Shown piece by piece: positions 5,418-48,770 of a DNA stretch of 64,000 nt. Under the pieces are notes generated by a model. It had not been told where the DNA came from and searched no databases. It was given only the letters and a program-made list of their open reading frames with translations. Position 1 is the first letter of the stretch, and each line of letters starts with the position of its first letter. The translations under genes and the position numbers were made by a program. The stretch lies in the NCBI GenBank assembly GCA_963844825.1, contig CAWJPQ010000002.1, positions 202,322 to 266,321 of the forward strand, read 5' to 3'. Source of the DNA: an uncultured Gammaproteobacteria bacterium (GTDB lineage: Bacteria; Pseudomonadota; Gammaproteobacteria; CAWJPQ01).

Positions 5418-6386
5418 ATGAACGGAAAATTCGGAAAATCGGTGCTGCGCACCGCCACCCTGGGACTGGGGCTCGTGGGCGTGTTGCTCATGGGGACCCA
5501 GAGCGCCATGGCGAAGACGGTGCACGTCACCCTGACGGCCAAGGAGACCACCGTCAAGATCGACAACAAGGGGACCGAATACCCTGCCTGGACCTACGGC
5601 GGTCACATACCGGGACCCGTGGTGCGCGTCCGCCAGGGGGACACGGTGGATTTCAAACTGATCAACCCGTCCACCAACAAAAACTCCCATTCCATCGACT
5701 TTCATGCCGCCCAGGTGGACGTCCTCAAGGAATTCGCACCCATCAAGCCGGGGCACACCAAGCACTTCACGTTCGTCGCCCACTATCCGGGCGCCTTCAT
5801 GTATCACTGCGGGGCCCCCACCATGGCCCAGCACATCGCCCGCGGCATGTATGGGATCATCATTGTCGATCCCAAAAACGGCTACAGCAAGCGATTCCCC
5901 AAACCGGACCGCGAGTATGTCCTGATCGAGGGGCAGTATTTCCCCAATGCCGATGACGCGACAGCCATGATCGAGAACAAGGGCTGGGCGGGCACCCTGA
6001 TCAACGGCAAGATGTTCCACTACGACCCCGTGCACGACCCCAACGCCAGCCTGGCACTGCAGTCCAAGCCCGGCGAGCGGGTCAGGATCTACTTCGTCAA
6101 CGCCAATATCAACATGCCCGTGGCCTTTCACCCCATCGCCGGAATCTGGGAACGGATGTACGTGGACGGCAATCCCCGGAACGTCCTCTACGGTGTACAG
6201 ACCTACAACGTAGCGGTGGCGGAGGCCGACATATTCGATATCGTCTCCCCCAAGGATCACGACACCAACAACGCCATCGTGGATCACACCATGAGCGCGG
6301 CCATGCGCGGTGCGATCACCGTGTTGATGAACACCTCCGACGCCGACCCCAAGCTCGGAAAAGGTGACAATATCCTGTTGCGGTAA
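5418..6386 (+). CDS. nirK: Copper-containing nitrite reductase
   Basis: ATG 5418 is preceded by GAGG (5407-5410), and a signal peptide follows. The type-1/type-2 Cu and catalytic blocks HSIDFH, YHCGAPTMAQHIARGM, FHPIAG and VDHTM match NirK. Confidence 0.85.
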   Translation: MNGKFGKSVLRTATLGLGLVGVLLMGTQSAMAKTVHVTLTAKETTVKIDNKGTEYPAWTYGGHIPGPVVRVRQGDTVDFKLINPSTNKNSHSIDFHAAQVDVLKEFAPIKPGHTKHFTFVAHYPGAFMYHCGAPTMAQHIARGMYGIIIVDPKNGYSKRFPKPDREYVLIEGQYFPNADDATAMIENKGWAGTLINGKMFHYDPVHDPNASLALQSKPGERVRIYFVNANINMPVAFHPIAGIWERMYVDGNPRNVLYGVQTYNVAVAEADIFDIVSPKDHDTNNAIVDHTMSAAMRGAITVLMNTSDADPKLGKGDNILLR

Positions 6387-6420
6387 CAGTGGCGCAGCAC
6401 CCCTTCTGCAGCCACTGAAT

Positions 6421-6527
6421 TGGGGGGACGCCCGTCCCCCGGGGTATGGTGCAAGGGAATTTAGTTCCGCTTTTTGACCACACCCCATAGGCCGCTACCA
6501 GATGATTGGTAGCGGCTTTTTTTCTGC
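6421..6527. repeat. Left copy of a ~105-bp element present in inverted orientation at 10371-10483
   Basis: The reverse complement aligns with 10371-10483 over the whole length, apart from one ~15-nt insertion. Shared parts are the gccgctacc..ggtagcggc hairpin, ggggtgtggtcaaaaa.cggaact and the ggggacg.ccgtcccc hairpin. Confidence 0.8.
6491..6523 (+). terminator. Rho-independent terminator after nirK
   Basis: 10-bp stem gccgctacca / tggtagcggc, 6-nt loop, then a T7 run. Confidence 0.7.
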
Positions 6528-6801
6528 TCAAAACTTCTAAGCAAATGGTTGGCGAAGACCTTAGACGTCCATTTGCGACGCAACGCAGACCCTTGTTATA
6601 TGCGGATCCCGCTGCCCTCAGGGCCAGAAACGCCAAACGCGTCTGGCTCTACAAGGCCACCAGACAGCGCGATAAACATAAAAAACCCGGAAGAATCAGC
6701 ATCGGCATTTCCATCTTTAATTTTTCTCTACTTGAAATGAAATTCATATCGCCTCCACATTTAGGGTATGGCTCGGCGCTATGTTGTTTTGTCATTTCTC
6801 A

Positions 6802-6882
6802 ATCTAACGCTGCGCGTGAGCGGCGAGCGGAGGCGGCGCGAAGCGCCGACGTAGCGAGTCCGACTCCACGCGCTTGTTAGAC
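6802..6882 (-). repeat. attC-like recombination site (81 bp)
   Basis: The minus strand reads GTCTAAC...GTTAGAT, matching RYYYAAC / GTTRRRY. These are the same terminal boxes as classical aadA-type attC. The arms are complementary with a few unpaired bases. Confidence 0.65.
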
Positions 6883-6946
6883 CGCACTTATCCCACGATA
6901 TGGAGCACCGTATTGCGGGTCATTAGTCCTGAGCACAAAGCGATCA

Positions 6947-8130
6947 TTAGTCTCCCCAATTCATCCAATCAATGGCACTCTCACAGAATCCGTCGCGCCA
7001 GATTCGCGTGCGGCCCGGGTTTAGAAATGGTATTCCCTCCAGTACGTCGCGATCTGAAGCTGCCAGAGTCACTATCTGTAGAGGAGTCCTAGGCTGGCGC
7101 CAATAATTCTTATCTCCTCCAGCTTGATAGTCGAGAATTAATTTCCCAAGCGCCTCATAAGCATAGCTGTCGTATGAAGGCATTGAGTACCCGATCATAA
7201 TAATCGCCGAGAACGACTCCATCGTTCTATGCATGTTGCTCCAAAGCTCTCGAATCGGGTCGTGTCCGAGAATCTTGTCGTAAGCCGGAGGTAACAGGAA
7301 AGGGACTTCAGAAAACGAACCTGACCGAAACGGAAAATACTGCCGATGATTTGGAACGCGGAATACGCGCGAGAGCAGTTCATGGCCGTATTCGCCCTTA
7401 ATTGCGCCTCGATTTAGAGGCTCTATAGGCACCCAAGCGTTTTCTCCAAATAATGGGTCCTTATCAGGTACTTCGGCTCCAGTAGACTTGTAGTAAGCTC
7501 GGCTCTCATCGTAGTACTGTCTGTCGTACCAATCGATTGACCCATGAAGCTTTAATACATCAACAAATTCTGCCTTGTGGTCGCGCGGTCGTTTCCCACG
7601 CTTTTCATCATCTAACCACCACTCTGGCGACAACGAATAAGCGATACCAAGTCGGTCCAACGTGTCTTCTATGACCGTGTCGTAGTTAAAAGTTAACACA
7701 AGGTCATAGGGCGTAAGGTCGGCACAAAATCGCTCATAGAGCCCTTTAGCACTTGCTTCTACATCCTTCGAGAGTATTTCTTGAATAATCGGTCTCGCGG
7801 ATGCGATTGTTCGGCTTCCGTGTTCGAAATATCATCTGATCGAATCAATTTGAGAAAGTGCTTTCTATGGCTGTATGCAAGAACGGATTCTAGAGTTACT
7901 TCGCAATTCGGGTAGAGAGCCGTCCACTCAGATATCTCATTTTCTAGTGGCCCGTCCCAGTCGTATGCCCGGAAATGATCGCGCATTCGAGCCCTCACCA
8001 TTTCGAGCAGCTCGATTCCCAATGGGTGGCCGGCGGGTTTCGAAAAACCAGAGCCGAGGATGAATAAACGAAATCTCGGGAGCGAGGCCGCCAGAGAATC
8101 ATCGGTAATTTCGGAAGTGTCAGTGTTCAA
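6947..8130 (-). CDS. SIR2-like (SIR2_2 family) putative NAD+-consuming protein; interrupted by one single-base frameshift near 7832 as sequenced
   Basis: N-terminal ORF 8130-7759 carries the nucleotide-binding loop FILGSGFSKPAGHPLG. C-terminal ORF 7699-6947 carries LTFNYDTVIED and LKLHGSIDWY, the catalytic Asn and His blocks of SIR2_2. My translation shows the C-terminal frame is open back to about 7831. A 1-nt repair gives one product of about 394 aa. Confidence 0.7.
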
Positions 8131-8134
8131 AGCG

Positions 8135-8233
8135 GTCTAACGCCTGAATTCAGCGGCGTTTGAGGCGACGCCTTTTTTTGCGGCAGCAAAAATGGGTGGC
8201 GGGTCAAACGTCCGCTGCAATGATTTGTTAGAG
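8135..8233 (-). repeat. attC-like recombination site (99 bp)
   Basis: The minus strand reads CTCTAAC...GTTAGAC. Arms aacaaatcattgcagcggacgtttga / tcaaacgccgctgaattcaggcgtt pair with single-base bulges. It begins 4 nt after the stop of the 473-aa ORF and ends 4 nt before the SIR2-like ORF start. Confidence 0.65.
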
Positions 8234-8236
8234 CGC

Positions 8237-9658
8237 CTACATCGGGCTCTTGAACTCAGAGTGCACATTCCTAAATCTCGGTTGTTCTTGCTTGGGATTG
8301 TAAGCTCTAGCGTCCTTCTGTTTGATCACCCGACTACCCAAAATATCTCGTGCTTCACCCAAGGACCAAACTGTTGCAAGATCGCTAGTCAGGTTTCGGT
8401 AGGCCGCCCGGAAACCTCGGGGCTGTTGCAAATTGGCAAAAAATTCGGGCAACGGCACTTTCAACCCTAAGTCAGGAGCCGGTGGCAAGCCTCTGAGTGC
8501 GGCATATGAGTTGTAGATTTGCACGAGCTTTGTTATCGGAATTCCTTGACGGGTCTGAACTCCATACTTAACTCGAATGTCATTCGAACCTCGCTGGATA
8601 TCGCGCATTAGCTTTGCCACAGCTTGATTCGCCTGAGCCACGCCAGATTCATCAAACAAGCGCCTTACTTCACGAAGTTGTGCCCTGACTTCGACAATTT
8701 CTGGAGCATCTCGAACTTGGCGAGCAGCCGCCACGATCTGTGCTGGGTCTGAGGTTTGTTTGGCCAGCCACGCGGAAAATACCGGCAACTGGAGGCCAGT
8801 AGTTGCAGCTAAACCAGCATGATGAATTTCGAAAACGTCCGCTGAGACTGAGCTTGAGAACTCGTTGACAATATGACGGGCGTAATCGAAACCGTAATTG
8901 CAGGTTTGGCTTAAGTAGCTTTGCTGATAGGTTTGCCTGATTGGATATAAGAAAGTGTCAGCCTGAAGGTGACGCCCAGCCATGCAGTAGAAAATTGAGC
9001 GATTCGCAAGCCAAACAAGAGATGCAACGAATGCTTTAATTGCAGCCGACGCTTCCCCAGTTGACTCCCCACCGTTATTCCACTTCGCCCCTGGAACCGC
9101 ATAGCCGTTGGTGATCGGCTGGCCGTATCGATCAACCAGCTCAACATCACTACTTGATCTATGACCAGATTCGCCTGCATCTGTAAGCTCGGAAAATATA
9201 GCGGCGGCGATGTTTCCGTACTTTGAAAACTCCTCCGAGTTGTCGGATAAGCTCTTGAGAGTAAGGTGATAGACGCTAGAGTTGATATCCCAAGTACAGA
9301 CAATATGGGTTTGCAGAAGCTCAATAAGATTTCGAAAATCTTGGTTAACAAACTCGCCGCCCTGAATTTTTGGCCTTAACTGACTTGCTTCTCGCCCAGC
9401 CAACTCTTCAAGTTCGGTGAACCTGTATCCATTTTTATCCAGAAAAGTTATCTCAGGGAACGCCGCCTTTCGAGGACCTCGATACGCTTCGATGTAATCA
9501 TCTACAGCTACTAATCTGTCATAGAACAACGTCGCTTGAACGAAGTTTTCGAGTGCGACAATATCAACGTCCACGGAATCATCCGTTTTTGAAAGCGCAT
9601 CGCCCGTCAGCCGCTGCACCGCAGTCAGAGTTGCATTGTCAATTAAGGCATACGTCAA
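8237..9658 (-). CDS. Hypothetical protein, 473 aa (cassette-borne orphan)
   Basis: Long uninterrupted ORF in AT-richer DNA, with a TTG start 8 nt after GAGGAG. I see no P-loop, nuclease, TIR, HEPN or TM motif. It is bounded by attC-like sites. Confidence 0.6.
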   Translation of the reverse strand: MTYALIDNATLTAVQRLTGDALSKTDDSVDVDIVALENFVQATLFYDRLVAVDDYIEAYRGPRKAAFPEITFLDKNGYRFTELEELAGREASQLRPKIQGGEFVNQDFRNLIELLQTHIVCTWDINSSVYHLTLKSLSDNSEEFSKYGNIAAAIFSELTDAGESGHRSSSDVELVDRYGQPITNGYAVPGAKWNNGGESTGEASAAIKAFVASLVWLANRSIFYCMAGRHLQADTFLYPIRQTYQQSYLSQTCNYGFDYARHIVNEFSSSVSADVFEIHHAGLAATTGLQLPVFSAWLAKQTSDPAQIVAAARQVRDAPEIVEVRAQLREVRRLFDESGVAQANQAVAKLMRDIQRGSNDIRVKYGVQTRQGIPITKLVQIYNSYAALRGLPPAPDLGLKVPLPEFFANLQQPRGFRAAYRNLTSDLATVWSLGEARDILGSRVIKQKDARAYNPKQEQPRFRNVHSEFKSPM

Positions 9659-9687
9659 CGTTCACTCCTCGGTGTGGTAGCAGGGCG

Positions 9688-9747
9688 CTCTAACGATGAA
9701 GCTCAGCCGCCGCGCTGTTTGCGGTCGGCTGCAGCGCATTGTTATAT
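9688..9747 (-). repeat. attC-like recombination site (60 bp)
   Basis: The minus strand reads ATATAAC...GTTAGAG, with paired arms aacaatgcgctgcagccgaccgc / gcggcggctgagcttcatcgtt. It sits about 30 nt upstream of the 473-aa ORF and its GAGGAG RBS. Confidence 0.5.
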
Positions 9748-10370
9748 GAGCGGAGCAACCTCGCCGATTTGCGACCGCCTTCCTTCGATACCCTCTTGCC
9801 ACCCATGCGCCTGGTAGCCGCGATCCCCGCAGCGACTACCGTTCCAGCAACGGGTGAGCGAAATGCGGGGCGGCCATCTATCAGTGGCCACGGGCCGTGA
9901 GGATACTGCGGGGGCGAAAGACACCATGTTCCCGCTGCGCATTTTGCCCATCGCAAATCAGCGAAGGTACCGTCGTCTCCGAGCAATGTCGCTGAGCTCA
10001 CCAATTCATTCTCGATGTCATCCGCATATATAACAGTGAGTAGACAGCACATAGCTGTGTTTAAACACAGACCTTTGCGGTATAGCCCCCATGGGTTTCC
10101 CTCCAACCCTTGGAATATACGGAGTAAATGTATATCTAGTGCCGTATATACCGCAGATTACCCCGAGGTAACGGTGCATTCAAGCTACGCGGGCATAGAC
10201 CGCATTATATTCAGGGGGGTTATGGTGCCTTGATTAGGCGAAATGGCTAAGCCGTGGTTGCGTTCGATCTGCGAACCCCGATGTTGATAGGCTGAGGCCA
10301 CAAGGCTGTACTGTGCCTTCGGTCGGGAACGGACTCTTAATGGTTAGACTAAGTCAAAAAATATAGGCAG

Positions 10371-10483
10371 AAAAAAGCCGCTACCGATCATCTGGTAACG
10401 GCCTGTTGTTACGGCCTCGGTGGGGTGTGGTCAAAAAACGGAACTGAATCTCCTTACACTATACCCCCGGGACGCCCGTCCCC
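10371..10483. repeat. Right, inverted copy of the ~105-bp element at 6421-6527
   Basis: See the left copy. A third copy of only the gggacgcccg.tccc hairpin lies at about 10553-10575. Confidence 0.8.
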
Positions 10484-10676
10484 TTTTTTTTAATGCCGGC
10501 ATGCCCGGCCCCCCTCGCCGTCCGGCGCGCGCCCAGCATGGGCATCGCGATTTACCCCAGGGACGCCCGGTCCCTCTGTGCCCGCGTATCGCCCCGCGAC
10601 CGGTATTGGTTTTCAAAGGCGAGCGGCTTGTTTATGCTTGAGCCATCCCACGGGCAACCACAACGGGCGAAGGCGG

Positions 10677-12164
10677 GTGAAAGAGCTTATCCTGGCGATC
10701 GATCAAGGGACCACGGGCACCACCGTGTGCCTGCTGGACGCCGCGGCGAATGTCCTGGCCGCCGTCACTCATGAGCACCCCCAGTATTACCCAAGGCCCG
10801 GCTGGGTCGAGCACGACCCCGAGGCCATATGGCAGACCGTCGTGGGGGGTATCGGTGATGTCCTGGCCAAGGCGAAGATTGCCGGCGAGCGCATTGCCGC
10901 CATCGGCATCACCAATCAGCGTGAGACGGTGGTGCTCTGGGACAGGGACACCCATGCCCCCCTCCACAACGCCATCGTCTGGCAGTGCCGCCGCACCACC
11001 GATTATTGCGAGCAGCTCAAGCAGGACAGCGCCGCCGGTATCATTCAGGAAAGGACCGGTCTGATCATCGACCCGTACTTCTCCGCGTCCAAGTTCCGCT
11101 GGCTGCTGGACAACGTGAAGGGGGCCCGGGCCATGGCGGACCAGGGCCGGTTGCGGGCGGGCACTGTCGATGCCTTCCTGCTGTGGCGGCTGACCGGCGG
11201 GCGCGTGCACAAGACCGACATCTCCAATGCCTCGCGCACCCAGCTCATGAACATCCACTCGGGCGAGTACGACCCGGAGTTGCTGAGCCTCTTCCGGGTG
11301 CCGGCGCACATCCTGCCCGAGATCGCCCTGTCCAATGAGGTCTTCGGCGCCACCCGCGGCGTGCCGGGGCTGCCCGATGGGATCCCTATCGCGGGCATGG
11401 CGGGCGACCAGCAGTCGGCCCTGTTCGGCCAGGCCTGTTTTGACGTGGGGATGTCCAAATGCACCTTCGGCACGGGGTCCTTCATGGTCATGAATACGGG
11501 GCGCGAGACGGTAGCGTCGCAATCCGGCCTGCTCACCACCGTCGCCTGGCACCTGGCGGGCGACAAGGCCCGCACCTACGCCCTGGAGGGAGGCGCCTTC
11601 GTGTGCGGCGCCGCCGTGCAGTGGCTGCGCGATCAGATGCAGTTCATCGAATCGAGTGCCGAGGTGGAGGCACTGGCCGGGCAGGTCACCAGCAGCGAGG
11701 GGGTGTTCCTCATCCCCGCCTTCGTCGGCCTCGGGGCACCCTACTGGAACCCCCATGCCCGCGCCACGCTGCTTGGCATGACCCGCGGCACCACCCGCGC
11801 CCACGTGGCCCGGGCGACCCTGGAGTCCATGGCCCTGCAAAACGCCGACATCCTCATGGCCATGGAAAAGGACCTGGGGTGCCGGACGAAGGCCCTGCGG
11901 GTGGACGGCGGCGCGGTGGAAAACGACCTGCTGATGCAGATGCAGGCCGACTTTCTCGGCGTCCCGGTGCAGCGGCCCAAGCACACCGAGTCCACGGTGC
12001 TGGGGGCCGCCTTCCTGGCCGGCCTGGGCGTCGGCTACTGGCCGGACCTGGCGGCCCTCGAGAAGCTCTGGACCCTGGACCGGGAGTTCACGCCTCGAAT
12101 GAGCGCGGCCGACCGGGACAGCCACCTGGAGCAGTGGCACCGCGCCGTCCAGCGGGTACTCTAA
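10677..12164 (+). CDS. glpK: Glycerol kinase
   Basis: FGGY kinase with N-terminal ILAIDQGTTGTTVCLLD, plus GITNQRETVVLWD and AGMAGDQQSALFGQ. I prefer the GTG start at 10677, which gives about 495 aa. The annotated ORF start at 10578 adds an implausible leader. Confidence 0.9.
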   Translation: MKELILAIDQGTTGTTVCLLDAAANVLAAVTHEHPQYYPRPGWVEHDPEAIWQTVVGGIGDVLAKAKIAGERIAAIGITNQRETVVLWDRDTHAPLHNAIVWQCRRTTDYCEQLKQDSAAGIIQERTGLIIDPYFSASKFRWLLDNVKGARAMADQGRLRAGTVDAFLLWRLTGGRVHKTDISNASRTQLMNIHSGEYDPELLSLFRVPAHILPEIALSNEVFGATRGVPGLPDGIPIAGMAGDQQSALFGQACFDVGMSKCTFGTGSFMVMNTGRETVASQSGLLTTVAWHLAGDKARTYALEGGAFVCGAAVQWLRDQMQFIESSAEVEALAGQVTSSEGVFLIPAFVGLGAPYWNPHARATLLGMTRGTTRAHVARATLESMALQNADILMAMEKDLGCRTKALRVDGGAVENDLLMQMQADFLGVPVQRPKHTESTVLGAAFLAGLGVGYWPDLAALEKLWTLDREFTPRMSAADRDSHLEQWHRAVQRVL

Positions 12165-20849: not shown

Positions 20850-21037
20850 CAGTCCGTCAATCTCCGTGCGGTCGTCACTGTACCCGGTTCCCCGCGCCCC
20901 TTGATTGCGATCACCGGCGGCTGCGCCGATGATGCATCACTGTGAATGGATGCTGCTTCATTGTCGACGGTAGAAGTCAACATAGCGAGTCTTATAATCG
21001 ATTGCAATCCTGCCGCCCCCCTTCGATTTAGCATTTA

Positions 21038-21051
21038 TTGATAAAGATCGA
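21038..21051. promoter_or_regulatory. FNR/CRP-family-like box TTGAT-N4-ATCGA upstream of the gltD-like/nifJ operon
   Basis: TTGATaaagATCGA matches the TTGAT-N4-ATCAA consensus at 9 of 10 positions. It lies about 190 nt upstream of the start at 20849. Confidence 0.25.
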
Positions 21052-21252
21052 AGCAATCGCAGTTACACCGATCGTTGACACACAACCTAACCCACCGCGC
21101 CGCGTCATGGATTGACATGCATCAAAAGACAGCCCCTGCGCACGATTCGTGGGAGGACCTTACTCGCCGTGAGCACCAGGCGTGTGATGTTAAAGGTCAA
21201 TGGAACCGCAACGGCCTATTTGGGAGCGCATTTTTCGCGATCGGATTTTTGC

Positions 21253-21388
21253 ACTCTCGCCAAGGCGCCAAGAACGCCAAGAAATCAATATTTGTGTTCC
21301 TGCAGCCGTACCATTTTGGGCTTTCCTCGCCAACACGCCGGGATGGAAACCCTTCTGTTCCCTTGGCGTGCTTGGTGTCTTGGCGAGA
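21253..21388. repeat. Imperfect 28-bp inverted repeat pair separated by about 80 bp
   Basis: ctctcgccaaggcgccaagaacgccaag pairs with cttggcgtgcttggtgtcttggcgagag, with about 24 of 28 positions complementary. Confidence 0.6.
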
Positions 21389-21544
21389 GCATAGAGATAC
21401 GCCGCCGGTGTTTACCCGCTTCCCCCCAGTTACACGGAAGGCAATAAGGGGTAAGGAAAACAACACCCTCCTGGGGAAGAGGGGATCCATGGAAGCAGGT
21501 CCTTGTATCGATCCCCTCAACCTGTCTTCTACCCTAACCTGTAC

Positions 21545-21640
21545 GCTTTACGTAGGTGGCCCGCGACAGCTCCGGGATCGCCGCCACGTCCCGGGGATCG
21601 GAGCGCACCAGCACGATATCCGACGACTCCGATCAAGGGA
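21545..21640 (-). pseudogene. Remnant (~30 codons) of a second heavy-metal P-type ATPase
   Basis: The minus-strand frame reads SDIVLVRSDPRDVAAIPELSRATYVKR. This is the conserved block that follows the [10 protein letters not shown] hinge of P1B ATPases. There is no ORF context on either side. Confidence 0.55.
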
Positions 21641-21821
21641 TCAGAGTACTTGAAAGCCACTTGATCGACCACCTTGATACGCTTTATCCACCATAAGGGG
21701 GGCATAGGTGCCTGCTGCCTGGGATCCATTCGTGGACTTGGGGCGGAAAGGGCGCTTATCCTTCTTGTATGCGCTAAGCGTCACCGAAAGACATATGCAG
21801 ACGGGAGGTGTGAGGATGTGA

Positions 21822-23667
<1,846 letters not shown>

Positions 23668-30916: not shown

Positions 30917-32032
30917 ATGAAGACTGACGCATTGATCAATCGGCTCCCGCCGGCGGCGGGCGGCCATGCCCGGCGGCCCCTTGTCCTCAAGGCCGGGGGC
31001 ACGGGAATCGGCACTTGTCTGTTGATCGCCCTGATGCTCCTGGCAGGGGCCTGGGCGAGCACCGGGGCCCAGGCCGCCGTGCCGGGGTTCAGCCGCTTCG
31101 ACCACTTCAGCACCGGCTTTCCCCTGACCGGCTACCACGCCCGGGTGGACTGCGAGCGCTGCCATATCGGCGGCGGGTTCCGCAACACCCCGCGCCAGTG
31201 CGCCGGCTGTCATACCCGGGGCAGCCGCGTCAGCGCCTCGGCCAAGCCCGTCAATCACATACCCTCAACCCAGAATTGCGGCGATTGTCATACCACCAAC
31301 ACCTGGCGCGTCGGCCGACGCATGAGTCACGTGGGCGTGATCGGCACCTGCTCGCGCTGTCACAACGGGGTGGTGGCGGAAGGCAAGCCGCCCGGGCACC
31401 TGCCGAGCACCGATACCTGCGAGCAGTGCCATACCATCGTCAGCTGGTCCAATACCCATTTCGATCACCGCAACGTGGCACCGGGCAGCTGCGTGACCTG
31501 CCATAACGGATCCCGCGCGAAGGGCAAATCGGCCCGCCACATCCAAAGCACCAATACCTGCGACGACTGCCACAACACCCGCCGATGGGCCGTGGGGCGG
31601 GTCAATCACGATGCCGTCCTGGGCACCTGCTACAGCTGCCACAACAACCAGATTGCACGGGGCAAGCCCGGAAATCACCCCGCGAGCTCCAATGACTGTC
31701 AGCAATGCCACAACACCAGCGACTGGGCGGCGGCCGGCTTCGACCACCGGGGCGTGGCGGCGGGCACCTGCGTCAATTGCCACAACGGATCCCGCGCCAC
31801 AGGCAAGTCCGCTTCGCACATCCAGTCCACCGACACCTGCGACGCCTGCCATACCACCCAGCGCTGGCGGCCGGTCAGCCAGGTGAATCACGCCGCGGTG
31901 CTGGGCAGTTGCTACAGCTGCCACAACAATCAGATCGCACGGGGCAAGCCCGGAGATCACCCGCGCACCAGCAATAACTGCCAAGAGTGCCACAGCACGA
32001 ACAGTTGGCATGCGGAAGGAGGCCGCGACTGA
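30917..32032 (+). CDS. 13-heme c-type cytochrome (paralogue of the following giant cytochrome)
   Basis: Signal peptide and 13 CxxCH motifs. The N-terminal FDHFSTGFPLTGYHARVDCERCH block is followed by three four-heme modules of the C..CHNG...GK...H type. Confidence 0.85.
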   Translation: MKTDALINRLPPAAGGHARRPLVLKAGGTGIGTCLLIALMLLAGAWASTGAQAAVPGFSRFDHFSTGFPLTGYHARVDCERCHIGGGFRNTPRQCAGCHTRGSRVSASAKPVNHIPSTQNCGDCHTTNTWRVGRRMSHVGVIGTCSRCHNGVVAEGKPPGHLPSTDTCEQCHTIVSWSNTHFDHRNVAPGSCVTCHNGSRAKGKSARHIQSTNTCDDCHNTRRWAVGRVNHDAVLGTCYSCHNNQIARGKPGNHPASSNDCQQCHNTSDWAAAGFDHRGVAAGTCVNCHNGSRATGKSASHIQSTDTCDACHTTQRWRPVSQVNHAAVLGSCYSCHNNQIARGKPGDHPRTSNNCQECHSTNSWHAEGGRD

Positions 32033-34764
32033 TGAACAACCATAATCCCGGTTTTATTACACACCCGCGCGGCCCGGCCCTTTGGCTGCTCGCCTGCCTG
32101 GCGCTGCTCGCATTGGCCGCAGCCGGTACCGCCCGAGGGGCGGTGACCACCAGCTTCGACCACTTCACCACCGGCTTTCCCCTGACCGGCGCCCATACCC
32201 GCGTGGACTGCGAAAACTGCCACGTGGGCGGCGTATTCAGAAACACCCCGACCCAGTGCGCCGCGTGTCATACGCACGGCGGGCGTATCGGTGCTTCGGC
32301 CAAACCCGTGGATCACATGCCCTCCACCGACGCCTGTGCCTATTGCCACACCACCCGGGCCTGGCGGCCGGTAGCACGGGTGGATCACACCGCGGTCATC
32401 GGGACCTGCGTGCGGTGTCACAACGGCACGCTCGCCCCCGGGAAACCGCCCCATCACATCGCCAGCAACAACAACTGCGATGACTGCCATACCACCAGCA
32501 ACTGGCAGGGGGCGGTCTTCGACCACAGCGGCGTCGCCGCCGGGCACCTGCGCCACCTGTCACAACGGCAGCAAGGCCACCGGCAAGCCGGCGACGCACA
32601 TCAGACCACCAACACCTGCGATGCCTGTCACAGCACCCGCGCTGGAATCCGGTGACCCGGGTGGATCACATGGCGGTGCTGGGCACCTGCTTCAGCTGCC
32701 ACAACACGGTGGCACCGGCAAGCCCGCCAACCACATCGCCAGCGCCAACACCTGCGACGACTGCCACACCACCAACACCTGGCAGGGAGCGGTATTCGAC
32801 CACAGCAACGTGGCGCCGGGCACCTGCGCCACCTGCCACAACGGCACCAAGGCCACCGGCAAGCCGGCGACGCACATCCAGACCACCAACACCTGCGATG
32901 CCTGTCACAGCACCCGCGCTGGAACCCGGCCACCCGGGTGGATCACACCGAGGTGCTGGGTACCTGCTACAGCTGCCACAACAACCGGCGGCACCCGGCA
33001 AGCCCGCCAATCACATCGCCAGCGCCAACACCTGCGACGACTGCCACACCACGACTTCGTGGTCCAATGCGGTCTTCGACCACAGCGGCGTCGCGCCCGG
33101 CACCTGCGCCACCTGCCACAACGGCACCAAGGCCACCGGCAAGCCGGCGGGCCACATCAGCAGCACCAATACCTGCGATGCCTGCCACAGCACCCGCACG
33201 TGGAACCCGACCACCCGGGTCGACCACACCGCGGTGCTCGGCACCTGCTACAGCTGCCACAACAACTCGGTGGCACCGGGCAAACCCGCCAATCACATCG
33301 CCAGCGCCAACACCTGCGATGACTGCCACACCACGACTTCGTGGGCCAATGCGGTCTTCGACCACAGTGGCGTCGCGGCCGGCACCTGCGCTACATGTCA
33401 CAACGGCACCAAGGCCACCGGCAAGCCGGCGGGCCACATCAGCAGCACCAATACCTGCGATGCCTGCCACAGCACCCGCACGTGGAACCCCACCACCCGG
33501 GTCGATCACACCGCGGTGCTCGGCACCTGCTACAGCTGCCACAACAACTCGGTGGCACCGGGCAAACCCGCCAATCACATCGCCAGCGCCAACACCTGCG
33601 ATGACTGCCACACCACGACTTCGTGGGCCAATGCGGTCTTCGACCACAGCGGCGTGGCGGCCGGCACCTGCGCCACCTGTCACAACGGCACCAAGGCCAC
33701 CGGCAAGCCGGCGGGCCACATCAGCAGCACCAATACCTGCGATGCCTGCCACAGCACCCGCACGTGGAACCCCACCACCCGGGTCGATCACACCGCGGTG
33801 CTGGGCACCTGCTACAGCTGCCACAACAACTCGGTGGCACCGGGCAAGCCCGCCAATCACATCGCCAGCGCCAACACCTGCGACGACTGCCACACTACGA
33901 CTTCGTGGTCCAATGCGGTCTTCGACCACAGCGGCGTCGCGGCCGGCACCTGCGCCACCTGCCACAACGGCACCAAGGCCACCGGCAAGCCGGCGACGCC
34001 ACATCAGCAGCACCAACACCTGCGATGCCTGCCACAGCACCCGCACGTGGAATCCCGTGACAAAAGTGGATCACCTGGAAGTGCTCGGCACCTGCTACAG
34101 CTGCCACAACGGCACCGTGGCCACCGGCAAACCAACCAATCATATTGCCAGCAACAACAACTGCGACGACTGCCACACCACCACCACCTGGGCCAATGCG
34201 GTCTTCGACCACAGCGGCGTCGCTGCCGGCACCTGCGCCACCTGCCACAACGGCACCAAGGCCACCGGCAAGCCGGCGGGCCACATCAGCAGCACCAATA
34301 CCTGCGATGCCTGCCACAGCACCCGTACCTGGAACCCGACTACGCGGGTCGATCACACCGCGGTGCTGGGCACCTGCTACAGCTGCCACAACAACTCGGT
34401 GGCACCGGGCAAGCCGGCGAACCACATTGCCAGCAGCAACTCCTGCGGCGACTGCCACAGCACCTCCACCTGGGCGAACGCCTCGTTCAACCACAGCGGT
34501 GTAGCCGCCGGCACCTGTGTGACCTGCCACAACGGCTCCACGGCCACCGGCAAGCCCAACAACCATATATCCACCACCGATACCTGCGACGCCTGCCACA
34601 GCACCCAGACATGGAACCCCGTGGTGCGGGTCGATCACTCGGCGGTGATGGGAACTTGCTACAGCTGCCACAACGGCACCATCGCCCGGGGAAAGCCTCG
34701 CGATCATCCCCGCACCAGTAACGACTGCCAGCGATGCCACAGCACCAGGACATGGGATCGATGA
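32032..34764 (+). CDS. Giant multiheme c-type cytochrome, about 910 aa and about 37 hemes if the frames are joined; about seven single-base frameshifts as sequenced
   Basis: ATG 32032 has a TGATG overlap and a GGAAGGAGG RBS, and a signal peptide follows. Every frame segment continues the same CxxCH module pattern. Indels sit at homopolymers, for example an extra G at 32542-32544, a missing C near 32602 and an extra C near 33998. They sum to -3, so the first and last frames coincide. Confidence 0.8.
32470..34740 (+). repeat. Eight tandem 282-bp coding repeats (94 aa, four hemes each) inside the giant cytochrome gene
   Basis: The unit is TCDDCH-FDH-TCATCHNG-GKPAGH-TCDACH-VDH-TCYSCHNN-GKPANH. 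The copies at about 33040-33900 are nearly identical at DNA level: the ORF track gives near-identical out-of-frame peptides starting at 33341 and 33623, exactly 282 nt apart. Confidence 0.9.
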
Positions 34765-46534: not shown

Positions 46535-47267
46535 GGCCGCGGGCGATGTTATCCATATGATTCCCTCTTTGCACGCACGGCTAGCGCAGCCAGTGGGGGC
46601 ACCCACAGGAATATATGATTTTTGTCCCTATTATAGCGGTATGCGGGCCCATTTCTTGAGAGGCGGCGCCGAGCGGTTACCTCGATGACGCGGCGGAGGC
46701 CTTGGAATCGGATCGATCAACAAGACCTGGACCTTCCGGTGGACGGGGCCGATGGCCGCGCCATGCGGCTCCGTGACCGAAACGAGGCAAACAACCCCGC
46801 GCCCACCTCAAGTTGAGGACGGCGCCCCGACGCAGCGCGTCTCTGAACGGCGTTCCCCGGATTGGCAGCATCCGCCTGGCTTAAACGAGGGACAACAGCG
46901 GACGAGCCTTCCAAAACCGTTGACACAACTGGCGCGCCCGAGGCGATAAAACTGGGCACTGGACGGACCGTTTTTTCCTCGCTTGAGGGGCAGAAAACCA
47001 CGAATATCCGTAATCACACAACAACCTTGCGCAGCGTGAAGATTAATTAATCGCACGGGCCCCTTGTGCTAGGTCATTCTCAATAAACATGTATCTCGTA
47101 TGTTTCTTTTATTCATCACATTCGGCGATCTCTCTCGCCAAAGGAATTAAAAAGGCGTACAGTTGGTGAGGACATTCGGGATTTCTCAAGACATAACGCC
47201 GTCGAAACTCTCGCGTTACGCATTATCCGAGTGCCATTCGCTTAATCAACGACAGGAGAGAGAAGCC

Positions 47268-47420
47268 ATGAAAGATTCTCAAGCCAGTTCGCGCCACTGG
47301 AACGACAACCCCGTAAAGCAAGCTGGTCAGATCGACAGTGATCTGCAAGGCTGGATGGCCTTCCTGCTGATAGTAGTGCTGGGTGCAGTAGTGATACTTT
47401 GGGGCTTGGCTCATTCCTGA
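47268..47420 (+). CDS. Small membrane protein (50 aa), hypothetical
   Basis: ATG 47268 lies 7 nt after GGAGAGAGAAG. There is a C-terminal TM helix WMAFLLIVVLGAVVILWGL. Confidence 0.3.
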   Translation: MKDSQASSRHWNDNPVKQAGQIDSDLQGWMAFLLIVVLGAVVILWGLAHS

Positions 47421-47829
47421 ATAGGGTTTCCCTGCGCACGTTGGGATTGACCCGTGCACCAGGATTGGGATGGATGCCTGGTGATGGCCGGTTTCGATCC
47501 CTCACCGACAGGCTGCTCGCGACCCGAAGCAGGCGTTTATGCCACAGGCGCCCTCTAGTGATCGTTGATATCAAGGGCGGCCAGGTTATTGACACCACTG
47601 TCCGGGTATCGGTATCTCATGGAAGGCTGTCGGTGGGGGGTCGTTTCCGAGGACGACGCTTTGAGAGGCACAGAACAGTTGACTTGCGGCCCTGCCAATT
47701 GAACAGGCGGAACAGGGAACCCTTCTGCCCGTTGGTGCCACAAAACGCCTGCAGCAGAAGTGCACCGGCCGCAGTACTATAAAGCAGTACTATTTTTAGA
47801 AACCACCCAGGTACAGGGTGCCTCAGGAT

Positions 47830-48222
47830 TCAGTGTCCTGCGCCAACCACGCTGGAGATGTTGATCGTGGACGCCTGCGCACTGGCACTCCACAGCAGGG
47901 CGTTGATGCTGGCGGTCACGTATGCCTGAACGCCGGAATTCGCACCCGACTGATCGTTGGCGCCCTTATGGTTGCTGCCGTCAGTTGAGTGGTCGCCATT
48001 CCATTGGTGGGAACCGACCTGTATACTACCCGCGTCATCGCCGCCGTTACCCATTTCACTGATCAGGCTGCTGTTGCCAGTGATGGTGCTGATGTTGTTA
48101 CCGTTACCGGTAATGCCGTTAAGGGCGCTGTCACCAAGGCTTTGTTTTGCAGCGTAGACCGGGGCAACCATCAGCACGGCCAGAGCACCGGAAACGCCAA
48201 TCTTCCAGATCGCATTCATCAT
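47830..48222 (-). CDS. Secreted Gly/Asn/Ser-rich hypothetical protein (130 aa)
   Basis: Signal peptide MMNAIWKIGVSGALAVLMVAPVYA. The mature part is low-complexity (NGITGNGNNISTITGNSS, GDHSTDGSNHKGANDQSGANSG). It lies in an AT-richer patch. Confidence 0.55.
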   Translation of the reverse strand: MMNAIWKIGVSGALAVLMVAPVYAAKQSLGDSALNGITGNGNNISTITGNSSLISEMGNGGDDAGSIQVGSHQWNGDHSTDGSNHKGANDQSGANSGVQAYVTASINALLWSASAQASTINISSVVGAGH

Positions 48223-48770
48223 TATTTCCGTTCACATATTGCAGAGTCGATTTGTTTCCCAGAAAACCTTTAGCTAACAAATGGTTACTTTACCAGTATG
48301 CATCTATTCCTATTGAGGCAGACCGGTCCGTGTATCCAGAACTGTATCGACGGGTTTGAGCGGAACTGAAGCGTCGGCCACCAGCAAAAAAGATGTAGAG
48401 GATATTTCACATTTAGGAAGGCAAAGCTCGAATGGCCGCCTCTGGATGGAAAATGGCCATGCTATAAGATAAGATTTCCTGTCTATTCAATATTAGCCGT
48501 ATTAGCCGTGGGTATATACCAAATGAAATTGGCTATAACGATTGGCTTTGTAATATTTTTATTCATTGCCATAGGTTTTGTCCGCTACCTGATAAAGCTA
48601 AACCGTCGGGCGAAGAAGGAGCAAAGCGCTGTCGATCCGGCCAAGCTGCGCAAGTGGGACGACGATTGAGACGACCCTGACGTCAATTCTTCCAACCAAT
48701 CAGGCTGATTCCCATATCTCTCCACGCCCCTACGTCTGGCGCGGACCCGCACGCCTTCAGCCGACTTAAC

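What the first reader, a model, noticed from the sequence alone, without database searches (positions are those of the whole stretch)
6421..10483. Integrase-less integron-type cassette array inserted between nirK and glpK
A ~4 kb stretch is visibly AT-richer than its flanks. It contains three imperfect palindromes of 60-99 bp with RYYYAAC...GTTRRRY-type ends on the minus strand: GTCTAAC...GTTAGAT, CTCTAAC...GTTAGAC and ATATAAC...GTTAGAG. Their arms pair with single-base bulges, which is the architecture of integron attC sites. Each site lies directly after one minus-strand ORF and a few nt before the next start. This is the one-promoterless-ORF-per-cassette layout. No intI, attI or transposase is present, so this would be a CALIN-type array. 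Recent work reports integron cassettes as reservoirs of anti-phage defence genes, which fits the SIR2-like cassette here.
Basis: partly seen in the sequence, partly recalled or inferred. Interest (0 to 1): 0.7.

Follow-up and report, generated by a model that had tools for sequence, protein, structure and literature searches.

The report
Integron cassette array inside transposon-like insert
A 4-kb piece of foreign DNA between a nitrite-reductase-like gene and glpK is a short stack of integron gene cassettes with no integrase, and it lies between long inverted repeats and a 15-base duplication of the upstream gene's terminator, so the whole stack probably arrived as one transposon-like unit.

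Summary
Window 6441-10467 has 50% G+C against 63% around it. It carries three attC sites on the minus strand (6802-6882, 8135-8233, 9688-9747). A covariance model built only from Vibrio vulnificus superintegron attC sites ranks these three first in the whole 64-kb window (E 1e-4 to 0.015; next hit 0.71). The first box of each attC complements the first bases of its own cassette. The 473-aa cassette recurs with the same boundary (G|TTAGAGC) and different neighbours in other arrays, including the V. vulnificus superintegron. No integrase or transposase gene was found in the window, so this fits the CALIN definition.

The array is bounded by imperfect terminal inverted repeats of about 90 and 105 bp, each with an inward-facing terminator. 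These are flanked by a 15-bp direct repeat, which is the stem-loop of the nirK-like gene's terminator. The SIR2-like gene is broken by a 1-nt deletion, and the last attC is only a remnant.

Best reading: cassettes assembled in another genome's integron, then moved as a non-autonomous, inverted-repeat-bounded element, now inert and decaying. No second copy of the repeats was found, so mobility is inferred. CALINs are ordinary; the carrier is a new variant.

The parts
6425..6439 (+). Left copy of the 15-bp direct repeat GGGACGCCCGTCCCC. It is the stem-loop of the nirK-like gene's terminator, separated here from its T-tract.
   Evidence: It is identical 15/15 to 10469-10483. Only these two exact copies exist in the 64 kb (0.64 matches at up to 2 mismatches expected by chance).
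6441..6530 (+). Left terminal inverted repeat (IR-L). It holds a 46-nt hairpin (6441-6486) and an intrinsic terminator that faces into the element (stem 6489-6518 plus T-run).
   Evidence: pairs I1, I2; E 1e-8 and 1e-9 within the window.
6531..6594 (-). Tail between IR-L and the attC remnant. It has a small hairpin (6541-6576) and no gene.
   Evidence: (pair I11).
6578..6601 (-). Remnant (5' half) of a fourth attC. Its R'' box ATATAAC lies at 6595-6601, one mismatch from the ATCTAAC expected from the cassette start TTAGAT. The 3' arm is missing.
   Evidence: E 8.4, not significant alone; family D6, 83% identical to the R'' side of attC 9688-9747; reading.
6602..6807 (-). Last cassette (d). It holds a 48-aa ORF (6649-6795) preceded by GGAGG, with no family match.
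6802..6882 (-). attC-a (81 nt; R'' GTCTAAC, R' GTTAGAT). It belongs to the SIR2-like cassette.
   Evidence: 24.5 bits, E 1.1e-4, best hit in the window. Its L box is imperfect (2 mismatches in the descriptor).
6808..8140 (-). Cassette a (1333 bp). It carries a SIR2-like gene (6947-8130) disrupted by a 1-nt deletion near 7831.
   Evidence: Pfam SIR2_2; PADLOC SIR2 profiles; intact 394-aa homologues at 92% and 88% identity; frame analysis.
8135..8233 (-). attC-b (99 nt; R'' CTCTAAC, R' GTTAGAC). It belongs to the 473-aa cassette and has the canonical 5-nt spacer, 3 bp, bulge, 6 bp, bulge layout.
   Evidence: E 2.1e-3; zero mismatches; homologous attC after the same gene in L005 and L055-L057.
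8141..9693 (-). Cassette b (1553 bp). It holds a 473-aa ORF (8237-9658, TTG start after GAGGAG) from a widespread family of unknown function.
   Evidence: 198 homologues; no Pfam, PADLOC, NCBIfam or PDB match; the same cassette boundary in other arrays.
9688..9747 (-). attC-c (60 nt; R'' ATATAAC, R' GTTAGAG), with canonical layout.
   Evidence: E 0.015; zero mismatches.
9694..10033 (-). Cassette c (340 bp, 59% G+C). It has no convincing ORF and begins TTATAT, which complements its own R'' box.
   Evidence: (pair I5).
10028..10034 (-). First recombination junction, GTTATAT. This is the upstream edge of the array; whether it is attI-derived or a secondary site is undetermined.
   Evidence: pair I5: 10021-10038 mirrors 9737-9754; reading.
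10035..10362 (-). Leader of about 330 bp (49% G+C) with no gene. It contains a perfect TATAAT about 165 nt upstream of the array with a weak -35, which is only a candidate promoter.
10363..10467 (-). Right terminal inverted repeat (IR-R). It has the same hairpin and an inward-facing terminator (10404-10375, minus strand), plus about 15 extra nt relative to IR-L.
10469..10491 (+). Right copy of the 15-bp repeat followed by T8. Together they form the native intrinsic terminator of the nirK-like gene.
   Evidence: Relatives have a G-rich hairpin plus T-run 20-45 nt after the stop codon.
10553..10575 (+). Third, imperfect copy (TACCCCAGGGACGCCCGGTCCCT). It matches the last 6 nt of IR-R plus the repeated hairpin at 20 of 23 positions. 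Unexplained.
   Evidence: families D1, D2.

Best explanation
Window 6441-10467 is a 4,027-bp foreign insertion. Its cargo is a small integrase-less integron cassette array (CALIN) read on the minus strand: a 340-bp cassette with no gene, a 473-aa unknown-function cassette, a SIR2-like cassette, and a last small cassette whose attC is only half present.

Shown: three attC sites are present, the cassette boundaries are correct, and one cassette is shared with bona fide integron arrays elsewhere.

Inferred step 1: the cassettes were built and stacked elsewhere by an integron integrase through attC x attI (or attC x secondary-site) recombination at G|TT.

Inferred step 2: the stack, with about 330 bp of upstream leader, then moved as one non-autonomous unit. 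The unit is bounded by imperfect terminal inverted repeats of about 90 and 105 bp. A transposase supplied in trans cut on either side of the stem-loop of the nirK-like gene's terminator and duplicated its 15 bp. Each inverted repeat carries an intrinsic terminator that faces inwards. The left one now does the job of the split host terminator and shields the cargo from read-through.

Current state: the array cannot be shuffled or moved by anything encoded in the 64-kb window. It is decaying, with a frameshift in the SIR2-like gene and a truncated last attC.
For: attC sites: an independent covariance model ranks them 1-3 in the window. A structural descriptor gives 2 hits against 0.07 expected.

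Cassette logic: the junction/R'' pairs are GTTATAT/ATATAAC, GTTAGAG/CTCTAAC and GTTAGAC/GTCTAAC. The same chain rule holds in array L001.

Shared cassette: DNA homology to other loci is confined to 8132-9709, which is exactly one cassette plus its attC. The boundary G|TTAGAGC is the same in Ca. Tenderia (L001-L004), L005, L055-L057 and the V. vulnificus superintegron (L006-L009), with different neighbours each time.

No recombinase: no integrase or transposase domain in the ORFs scanned.

Boundaries: inverted repeats of 51 nt at 86% and 34 nt at 94% (E 1e-8 and 1e-9). They coincide with the G+C drop. The 15/15 direct repeat lies immediately outside them.

Target site: removing the element and one repeat copy restores hairpin plus T8 37 nt after the stop codon. 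Relatives have the same architecture after their nirK homologues.

Precedent: MITE- or IMU-flanked integrons that transpose with a target duplication when a transposase is given in trans (PMC3575428). 38% of CALINs have a neighbouring IS (PMC4889954).
Against: Only one copy of the inverted repeats is known. There is none elsewhere in the window or in PLSDB plasmids. Exact scans of species-representative genomes (24-mer), viral contigs and metagenomes (20-mer) gave nothing or only chance hits. These exact scans would miss diverged copies.

No cognate transposase or autonomous relative was identified, and the ends match no family I could test.

A 15-bp duplication is unusual. The known family with 15-17-bp repeats (ISTde1 group) has TGT ends, which this element lacks.

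No empty site in a relative could be obtained. The closest nirK loci are only 76-79% identical and lack glpK.

The repeated hairpin is nearly palindromic, and a similar hairpin with the same 6-nt prefix lies 91 bp downstream (10553-10575). Some role of a host repeat cannot be excluded.
Confidence: 0.72

Rival explanations
1. Composite capture. Two separate copies of a small MITE-like repeat inserted into a chromosomal integron array in another genome, one inside the last attC and one upstream of cassette c. Their outer ends then mobilised the intervening piece, as in MITE-integron-MITE and IMU structures.
For: A precedent exists (PMC3575428, PMC3934969). The last attC is truncated close to IR-L. 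The leader next to IR-R matches nothing.
Against: Each terminal unit has no inverted repeat of its own at its inner end, so neither looks like a complete MITE. No solitary copies were found anywhere.
Confidence: 0.2
2. Integrase-only origin. Cassettes were inserted one after another by an integron integrase at a secondary (attG-type) site, either in the chromosome or in a small inverted-repeat element that was already there. No transposition of the array took place.
For: IntI can insert cassettes outside att sites (10.1101/2022.09.11.507474). Cury et al. list secondary-site integration as one origin of CALINs (PMC4889954). The array starts at a simple GTT junction with no recognisable attI.
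Against: IntI recombination makes neither inverted repeats nor a 15-bp duplication. The array's immediate flanks (6531-6594 and 10035-10362) are foreign AT-richer DNA inside the repeats, not host sequence. The last attC should be complete after such insertions, but it is not. The variant 'cassettes entered a resident inverted-repeat element' is not excluded.
Confidence: 0.15
3. In-situ relic. A resident sedentary chromosomal integron at this locus lost its intI and attI by deletion.
For: Loss of intI is a proposed origin of CALINs, and pseudogenes lie near 5% of them (PMC4889954). This array is visibly decaying.
Against: Only about 330 bp lie upstream of the first cassette, with no recombinase similarity. 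The block is bounded by inverted repeats plus a direct repeat and splits a terminator whose intact form is conserved in relatives. The attC sites are heterogeneous in length and sequence (60, 81 and 99 nt), unlike the uniform sites of sedentary arrays such as the V. vulnificus one.
Confidence: 0.07
4. The palindromes are ordinary transcription terminators or REP-like repeats inside a conserved operon.
For: They fold stably. One contains a terminator-like sub-hairpin with a T-run on the plus strand.
Against: The covariance model and descriptor results are strand-specific. The R''/R' cassette logic holds. Gene neighbours differ in every locus examined, so there is no operon.
Confidence: 0.02

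Closest known systems
CALIN (cluster of attC sites lacking integron-integrase), as defined by IntegronFinder (Cury et al. 2016, PMC4889954)
   Same: It has at least two attC sites close together and no integron integrase within 4 kb. It is small (three or four sites, like the 83% of CALINs with fewer than six). Its cassettes are of unknown function and are not resistance genes. The host is inferred to be a gammaproteobacterium.
   Different: The array is enclosed by terminal inverted repeats and a target duplication. That gives a specific route of arrival, whereas the origin of most CALINs is unknown or attributed to IS-mediated rearrangement.
MITE-integron-MITE structures of Acinetobacter (439-bp MITE) and the IMU-flanked integron of Enterobacter cloacae (288-bp IMU) (reviewed in PMC3575428; PMC3934969)
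   Same: These are non-autonomous repeat-bounded units carrying a cassette array, with a target-site duplication and no transposase inside. Mobility depends on a transposase supplied in trans.
   Different: Those carry class 1 integrons with intI1 (complete or defective) between two full copies of a repeat that also occurs alone. Here there is no intI. The ends are single imperfect repeats of 90-105 bp rather than whole MITEs. The duplication is 15 bp and lies in a terminator hairpin. No other copy of the repeat is known.
Mobile insertion cassettes (MICs, e.g. MIC231) and other passenger-carrying non-autonomous transposons (named in PMC2266710; details from my own knowledge)
   Same: The layout is inverted repeats, passenger genes, inverted repeats, with no transposase and a target duplication. 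From my own knowledge, IS231 relatives prefer GGG-N-CCC type targets, which resembles the G-run/C-run hairpin hit here.
   Different: IS4-family ends start 5'-CA or 5'-CT and duplicate about 10 bp (PMC2266710). This element starts GGGGTAT and duplicates 15 bp. No cognate IS is known.
ISTde1 subgroup of the IS1202 family (10.1101/2022.12.17.520857)
   Same: It makes 15-17-bp direct target repeats and occurs in gamma- and beta-proteobacteria, among other groups. The paper names passenger-carrying IS in the family's other two subgroups.
   Different: Its inverted repeats are short and begin 5'-TGT-3'. This element has no TGT at either tip and encodes no transposase.
Sedentary chromosomal integron of Vibrio vulnificus
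   Same: It carries a 65%-identical copy of the 473-aa cassette with the same G|TTAGAGC start and CTCTAAC R'' box. It shares the attC architecture.
   Different: It has long arrays of near-identical attC sites of about 127 nt. From my own knowledge it also has a resident IntI, though none lies in the stretches fetched here. The window has three heterogeneous sites and no integrase.

Membership tests
Integron cassette array / CALIN | Two or more attC sites detected by a covariance model, spaced less than 4 kb apart | tested here: met
   Model R1 was built from V. vulnificus attC sites only. Its hits at 6802-6882, 8135-8233 and 9688-9747 (E 1.1e-4, 2.1e-3, 0.015) are the top three of the window. 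IntegronFinder's own model could not be run.
Integron cassette array / CALIN | attC architecture: R''(..AAC) and R'(GTT..) boxes, L boxes, and extrahelical bases that make the fold strand-specific | tested here: met
   A zero-mismatch fit to R''-5 nt-3 bp-bulge-6 bp-bulge ... 6 bp-3 bp-6 nt-R' is found for attC-b and attC-c, on the minus strand only, against 0.07 expected. attC-a fits with 2 mismatches in its L box.
Integron cassette array / CALIN | Cassette boundaries at G|TT, with each attC's R'' box complementary to the first bases of its own cassette (a trace of a circular intermediate) | tested here: met
   Three of three complete cassettes obey the rule; the fourth has one mismatch. The rule also holds in comparison array L001.
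Integron cassette array / CALIN | Cassettes are independent mobile units: the same cassette occurs elsewhere with other neighbours | tested here: met
   The 473-aa cassette occurs in at least five other array types, including the V. vulnificus superintegron. Homology stops at the cassette edges. The SIR2-like gene starts at G|TTAGGCCGCCTTGAAC in L074.
Integron cassette array / CALIN | No integron integrase within 4 kb | tested here: met
   The neighbours are Cu-oxidase, cytochrome c and FGGY kinase genes. There is no recombinase signal in the 64 kb.
Integron cassette array / CALIN | attC sites are recombined by an integron integrase | not testable with these tools
   This needs an excision or integration assay with an IntI.
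Complete integron | An intI gene with an adjacent attI site and Pc promoter | tested here: not met
   No intI was found. The 330-bp leader has no recognisable attI. There is only a weak promoter-like site with a perfect TATAAT.
MITE/IMU-flanked integron (composite element) | Two copies of a repeat that also exists as solitary copies, flanking the integron | tested here: not met
   No further copy was found in the window, species-representative genomes, plasmids or metagenomes. The collection scans were exact-match only, so diverged copies could be missed.
MITE/IMU-flanked integron (composite element) | A target-site duplication flanking the whole unit | tested here: met
   A 15/15-bp direct repeat lies immediately outside the inverted repeats. 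The reconstructed empty site is a canonical terminator.
Non-autonomous DDE transposon / mobile insertion cassette | Terminal inverted repeats, no transposase gene, and passenger genes | tested here: met
Non-autonomous DDE transposon / mobile insertion cassette | An autonomous relative with the same ends and a transposase | tested here: inconclusive
   None was found. However, the searches were exact-word scans or limited collections, and the source genome beyond the window is not available.
IS1202 family, ISTde1 subgroup | 15-17-bp target repeats together with inverted repeats that begin 5'-TGT-3' | tested here: not met
   The repeat length fits at 15 bp, but both tips read (C/G)GGGGTAT with no TGT. 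The criterion is from 10.1101/2022.12.17.520857.
SIR2-type anti-phage effector | An intact SIR2 NADase domain protein, usually with a sensor domain or partner gene | tested here: not met
   The SIR2_2 domain is present (PADLOC SIR2 profiles at E 3.5e-12), but the reading frame is broken by a 1-nt deletion. No partner gene lies in the cassette. No specific known system is matched strongly.

The most novel reading that the evidence does not exclude
The inverted repeats define a previously undescribed non-autonomous transposable element. It inserts across intrinsic-terminator stem-loops, duplicates 15 bp, brings its own replacement terminators, and ferries whole integron cassette arrays between genomes. 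This would be a transposition route by which CALINs reach genomes that have no integron integrase.
Probability: 0.3. Interest if true: 0.65.

Novelty: new variant of a known kind. Interest (0 to 1): 0.45.

Why it matters
About half of all CALINs lie in genomes without an integron integrase, and their origin is an open question (PMC4889954). A cassette array with transposon-type ends and a clean target duplication is a concrete example of one route: wholesale transposition of a piece of an array. This sits alongside the integrase-driven secondary-site route. It would also mean that cassette-borne functions, including candidate phage-defence genes, can spread without any integron machinery.

Apart from that, this is a small, decaying CALIN of an ordinary kind. 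Its one gene with a recognisable defence-type domain is inactivated.

Tried and rejected
1. Rfam scan of 6000-11000: only a chance miRNA hit at E 0.68.
2. Exact look-up of the 473-aa protein: not on record.
3. BLAST of the whole element and of IR-L against plasmids: nothing, or 22-26-nt chance matches.
4. Inverted-repeat word scans. Species-representative genomes gave 0 hits and viral contigs 0. Metagenomes gave 15 hits, of which 13 are one unrelated conserved locus and 2 are isolated. This equals chance, with no further similarity to the repeat.
5. Empty-site search through 44 loci encoding nirK relatives: none has glpK downstream and identity is at most about 80%, so no empty site was found. 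Only the terminator architecture could be compared.
6. A naive palindrome/energy scan for attC was too permissive in this G+C-rich genome. It was replaced by a strict descriptor and a covariance model.
7. A mixed-source 'core' attC alignment (A2) had inconsistent geometry and was dropped in favour of the V. vulnificus-only alignment A3.
8. AlphaFold2 of the 473-aa protein gave pLDDT 53, so no fold search was run. A PDB profile search found nothing.
9. Family assignment of the ends was considered and rejected for three groups: Tn3 family (GGGG start, but a 5-bp duplication is not present), IS4 family (CA/CT ends, about 10 bp), and ISTde1 (TGT ends).
10. The 138-aa ORF spanning the first junction has no homologue and no codon-position signal, so it was rejected as a gene.
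11. The model is not very sensitive. R1 finds only some attC sites in the comparison arrays.

Full report
THE REGION

Window 6441-10467 (4,027 bp) has 50.4% G+C, against 63% for the rest of the window. To its left lies a two-domain multicopper-oxidase gene of the NirK type (about 5418-6386). It has Pfam Cu-oxidase domains, and its closest relatives are in uncultured Gammaproteobacteria/Chromatiaceae and Nitrotoga. To its right lies glpK, with FGGY N- and C-terminal domains. All ORFs of any length inside the block are on the minus strand.

ARE THE PALINDROMES attC SITES?

I tested them in three independent ways.

1. Covariance model. I aligned 18 attC sites from Vibrio vulnificus superintegron stretches that had been fetched for another reason (alignment A3). 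I gave the alignment the R-box, 3-bp, 6-bp and inner-stem pairs and built model R1. Run over all 64 kb, both strands, with filters off, its three best hits are exactly the three sites. All are on the minus strand, at 24.5, 20.1 and 17.3 bits (E 1.1e-4, 2.1e-3, 0.015). The next hit is at E 0.71. The training sites share no sequence ancestry with the window.

2. Structural descriptor. I used a strand-specific pattern of the canonical layout: R'' ..AAC, 5-nt spacer, 3 bp, one bulged base, 6 bp ... 6 bp, 3 bp, 6-nt spacer, GTT.. R'. With zero mismatches it finds only 8135-8233 and 9688-9747, both on the minus strand. Thirty dinucleotide shuffles give a mean of 0.07 hits. The same descriptor, at up to one mismatch, recovers the V. 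vulnificus sites as a positive control. The site at 6802-6882 has an imperfect L box (2 mismatches), so it rests on the covariance model and on the third test.

3. Cassette logic. In an array, the R'' box of each attC should complement the first bases of its own cassette. Read on the minus strand, this holds:
- Junction GTTATAT at 10034-10028, then attC-c with R'' ATATAAC.
- attC-c ends GTTAGAG, and attC-b has R'' CTCTAAC.
- attC-b ends GTTAGAC, and attC-a has R'' GTCTAAC.
- attC-a ends GTTAGAT, and the next R''-like box (6601-6595) is ATATAAC, one mismatch from the expected ATCTAAC.
The last site has only its 5' arm (the model finds it at E 8.4, not significant). The same chain rule holds in comparison array L001.

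ARE THE CASSETTES MOBILE UNITS OR AN OPERON?

The 473-aa protein has 198 homologues at E <= 0.001. I fetched the genomic contexts.
- Ca. Tenderia electrophaga (87% identity): the gene follows four small same-strand ORFs and is followed by IS genes.
- L005 (89%): it is followed by a TIR-domain gene.
- L054 (91%): it is followed by an AbiJ-like gene.
- L055/L056 (86%): it is followed by a pentapeptide-repeat gene.
- V. vulnificus (65%): it sits in the superintegron between attC sites of about 127 nt.

Aligning the flanks shows that similarity begins exactly at G|TTAGAGC upstream. It ends in an attC with R'' CTCTAAC downstream. Upstream of the G, every locus differs. BLASTN of the whole element against all fetched loci matches only 8132-9709, which is one cassette plus its attC. 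L055 also holds three further copies of the attC-b type, so this cassette probably comes from a chromosomal array with that attC family.

The SIR2-like protein has intact 394-aa homologues (92% and 88% identity). In L074 its gene begins at G|TTAGGCCGCCTTGAAC, after an attC-like site. In L075 it lies, without attC, in a defence island of a conjugative element.

NO INTEGRASE OR TRANSPOSASE IN THE WINDOW

Pfam scans of the plausible genes found no recombinase or transposase domain. That query worked as a probe, since it detected tyrosine recombinases in unrelated loci at E 1e-12 to 1e-14. Its best hit in the window was E 0.87. By the IntegronFinder definition (at least two attC sites and no integron integrase within 4 kb; PMC4889954), this is a CALIN.

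The block is bracketed by terminal inverted repeats. One pair is 6437-6487 against 10421-10471 (51 nt, 86% complementary). The other is 6489-6522 against 10371-10404 (34 nt, 94%). The within-window BLAST E-values are 1e-8 and 1e-9. In a global alignment, IR-L is about 90 nt (6441-6530). IR-R is about 105 nt (10363-10467) and has roughly 15 extra nt.

Each end contains a 46-nt hairpin (GGGGTATGGT...ACCACACCCC), followed by a strong hairpin with a T-run. That second hairpin is an intrinsic terminator pointing into the element: plus strand at 6489-6518 and minus strand at 10404-10375.

Immediately outside the repeats is a perfect 15-bp direct repeat, GGGACGCCCGTCCCC (6425-6439 and 10469-10483). 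The right copy is followed by T8 and scores as a terminator. The left copy has lost its T-tract.

Deleting the element and one repeat copy gives ...GAATTGGGGGGACGCCCGTCCCCTTTTTTTT..., a canonical terminator 37 nt after the nirK-like stop codon. In relatives, the homologous gene is followed by just such a G-run hairpin plus T-run, 20-45 nt after the stop. The simplest reading is an insertion that cut on both sides of the terminator stem-loop and duplicated it.

WHAT KIND OF CARRIER?

I could not place the ends in a family.
- They start GGGGTAT, like the Tn3 family, but there is no 5-bp duplication.
- IS4-family ends start CA or CT and duplicate about 10 bp (PMC2266710).
- The ISTde1 group makes 15-17-bp repeats but has TGT tips (10.1101/2022.12.17.520857).

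No second copy of the repeats was found. I checked the window, one genome per species, plasmids, viral contigs and metagenomes. The metagenome hits are one unrelated conserved locus plus two isolated matches, which is the number expected by chance. No empty site could be retrieved. Transposition is therefore inferred from anatomy alone.

The closest precedents are the MITE-integron-MITE and IMU-integron-IMU structures. These carry class 1 integrons, show target duplications, and in one case were shown to move when a transposase was supplied in trans (PMC3575428, PMC3934969). Here the cargo has no integrase and each end is a single imperfect repeat, not a whole MITE. Mobile insertion cassettes are the nearest formal analogue.

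CONTENT AND STATE OF THE CARGO

- Cassette c (340 bp, 59% G+C) has no codon-position signal. Its only long ORF runs across the junction and has no homologue.
- Cassette b encodes the 473-aa protein. It has no Pfam, NCBIfam, PADLOC or PDB match, and the AlphaFold2 model is poor.
Compared with the intact homologue (TCA GAT GAN TAT TTC), one base is missing near 7831. The gene is therefore split into 123-aa and 250-aa ORFs. The site is not a homopolymer run, but a sequencing error cannot be excluded.
- Cassette d has a 48-aa ORF with a GGAGG site.
- The leader of about 330 bp has only a weak promoter-like site with a perfect TATAAT. Expression of the array is therefore unproven.

HOW IT MOST LIKELY WORKS

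Shown: there are three attC sites, four cassettes (one with a decayed attC), no local recombinase, inverted-repeat ends, a 15-bp repeat and a split host terminator.

Inferred:
- The cassettes were stacked by an integron integrase in another genome.
- A segment of that array, or cassettes that entered a small inverted-repeat element, was transposed in trans into the terminator.
- The IR-L terminator now ends nirK transcription.
- The array is a passive remnant that only an integrase or transposase encoded elsewhere could reactivate.

RIVALS

The rivals are composite capture by two MITEs, integrase-only insertion at a secondary site (10.1101/2022.09.11.507474), and in-situ loss of intI. Each is weighed in its own section. 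The first is a close variant of the best explanation. The other two do not account for the inverted repeats plus the 15-bp repeat.

NOVELTY AND SCORE

CALINs are common (279 in the 2016 survey) and 38% lie near an IS (PMC4889954). Cassettes with defence-type genes are now well documented (10.1101/2024.07.02.601686). The array itself is therefore an ordinary new member of a known kind. An integrase-less array carried as cargo of a terminator-targeting unit with long inverted repeats and a 15-bp duplication is, as far as I could find, a new variant. It rests on a single copy. I score interest at 0.45.

Noticed in passing
window 8237-9658 (minus); L076-L078 8001-9419; L079/L080 8001-9419: The 473-aa cassette protein belongs to a widespread family of about 472 aa with no Pfam, NCBIfam, PADLOC or PDB match. 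Outside cassette arrays it occurs as a lone opposite-strand gene between the tail-sheath and tail-fibre-assembly genes of E. coli P2-like prophages. PMC13586616 names the Z/fun locus and the tail genes as P2 defence hotspots; that this inter-gene position is the Z/fun locus is from my own knowledge. It also occurs in a Pectobacterium island with HEPN-Toprim, CcdAB, TacA and SMC-like genes. It is a good candidate for an undescribed single-gene anti-phage function.
   Followed up: partly
window 8135-6947 and L005 5064-6131: The cassette after the 473-aa cassette encodes an NADase-type domain twice: SIR2-like here and TIR-domain in L005. In other arrays the neighbour is unrelated (AbiJ-like, pentapeptide, IS genes or small ORFs), and each gene has its own attC. 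This is probably enrichment of defence genes in cassettes, not a two-gene system.
   Followed up: partly
window 10553-10575: TACCCCAGGGACGCCCGGTCCCT repeats the last 6 nt of IR-R plus the duplicated terminator hairpin at 20 of 23 positions. It lies 91 bp downstream of the right junction, upstream of glpK. It could be a remnant of another end or a host hairpin family. It is unexplained.
   Followed up: no
L059, L060, L062-L067, L069-L073 (around the matches listed): Thirteen metagenome contigs share one conserved stretch of about 140 nt that begins TGTGGGCGGTAGAGTAATTATCACCCCTGATGAG. It happens to contain the 20-mer used to scan for the inverted repeat. It is unrelated to the element, and Rfam has no match at gathering threshold.
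   Followed up: partly
window 30917-34721 (plus): Two large multihaem cytochrome genes (Cytochrome_C7; the first also has an MtrC/MtrF-like domain). Together with the 87% match of the cassette protein to Ca. Tenderia electrophaga, this hints at an electroactive gammaproteobacterial host. The organism was not identified.
   Followed up: no
window 21000-22300 and 47000-49000: Local G+C dips (0.57 and 0.53) contain ORFs that have no Pfam match. They could be other foreign or non-coding stretches.
   Followed up: no
window 10405-10420 (within IR-R): The roughly 15 extra nt of IR-R relative to IR-L look like a local tandem duplication (AGGCCGTAAC-AAC-AGGCCGTTAC) of the first arm of the terminator hairpin.
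   Followed up: no
L054 1-103: A run of GGGACA hexamer repeats lies directly upstream of the closest (91%) homologue of the 473-aa gene, where the other arrays have an attC.
   Followed up: no
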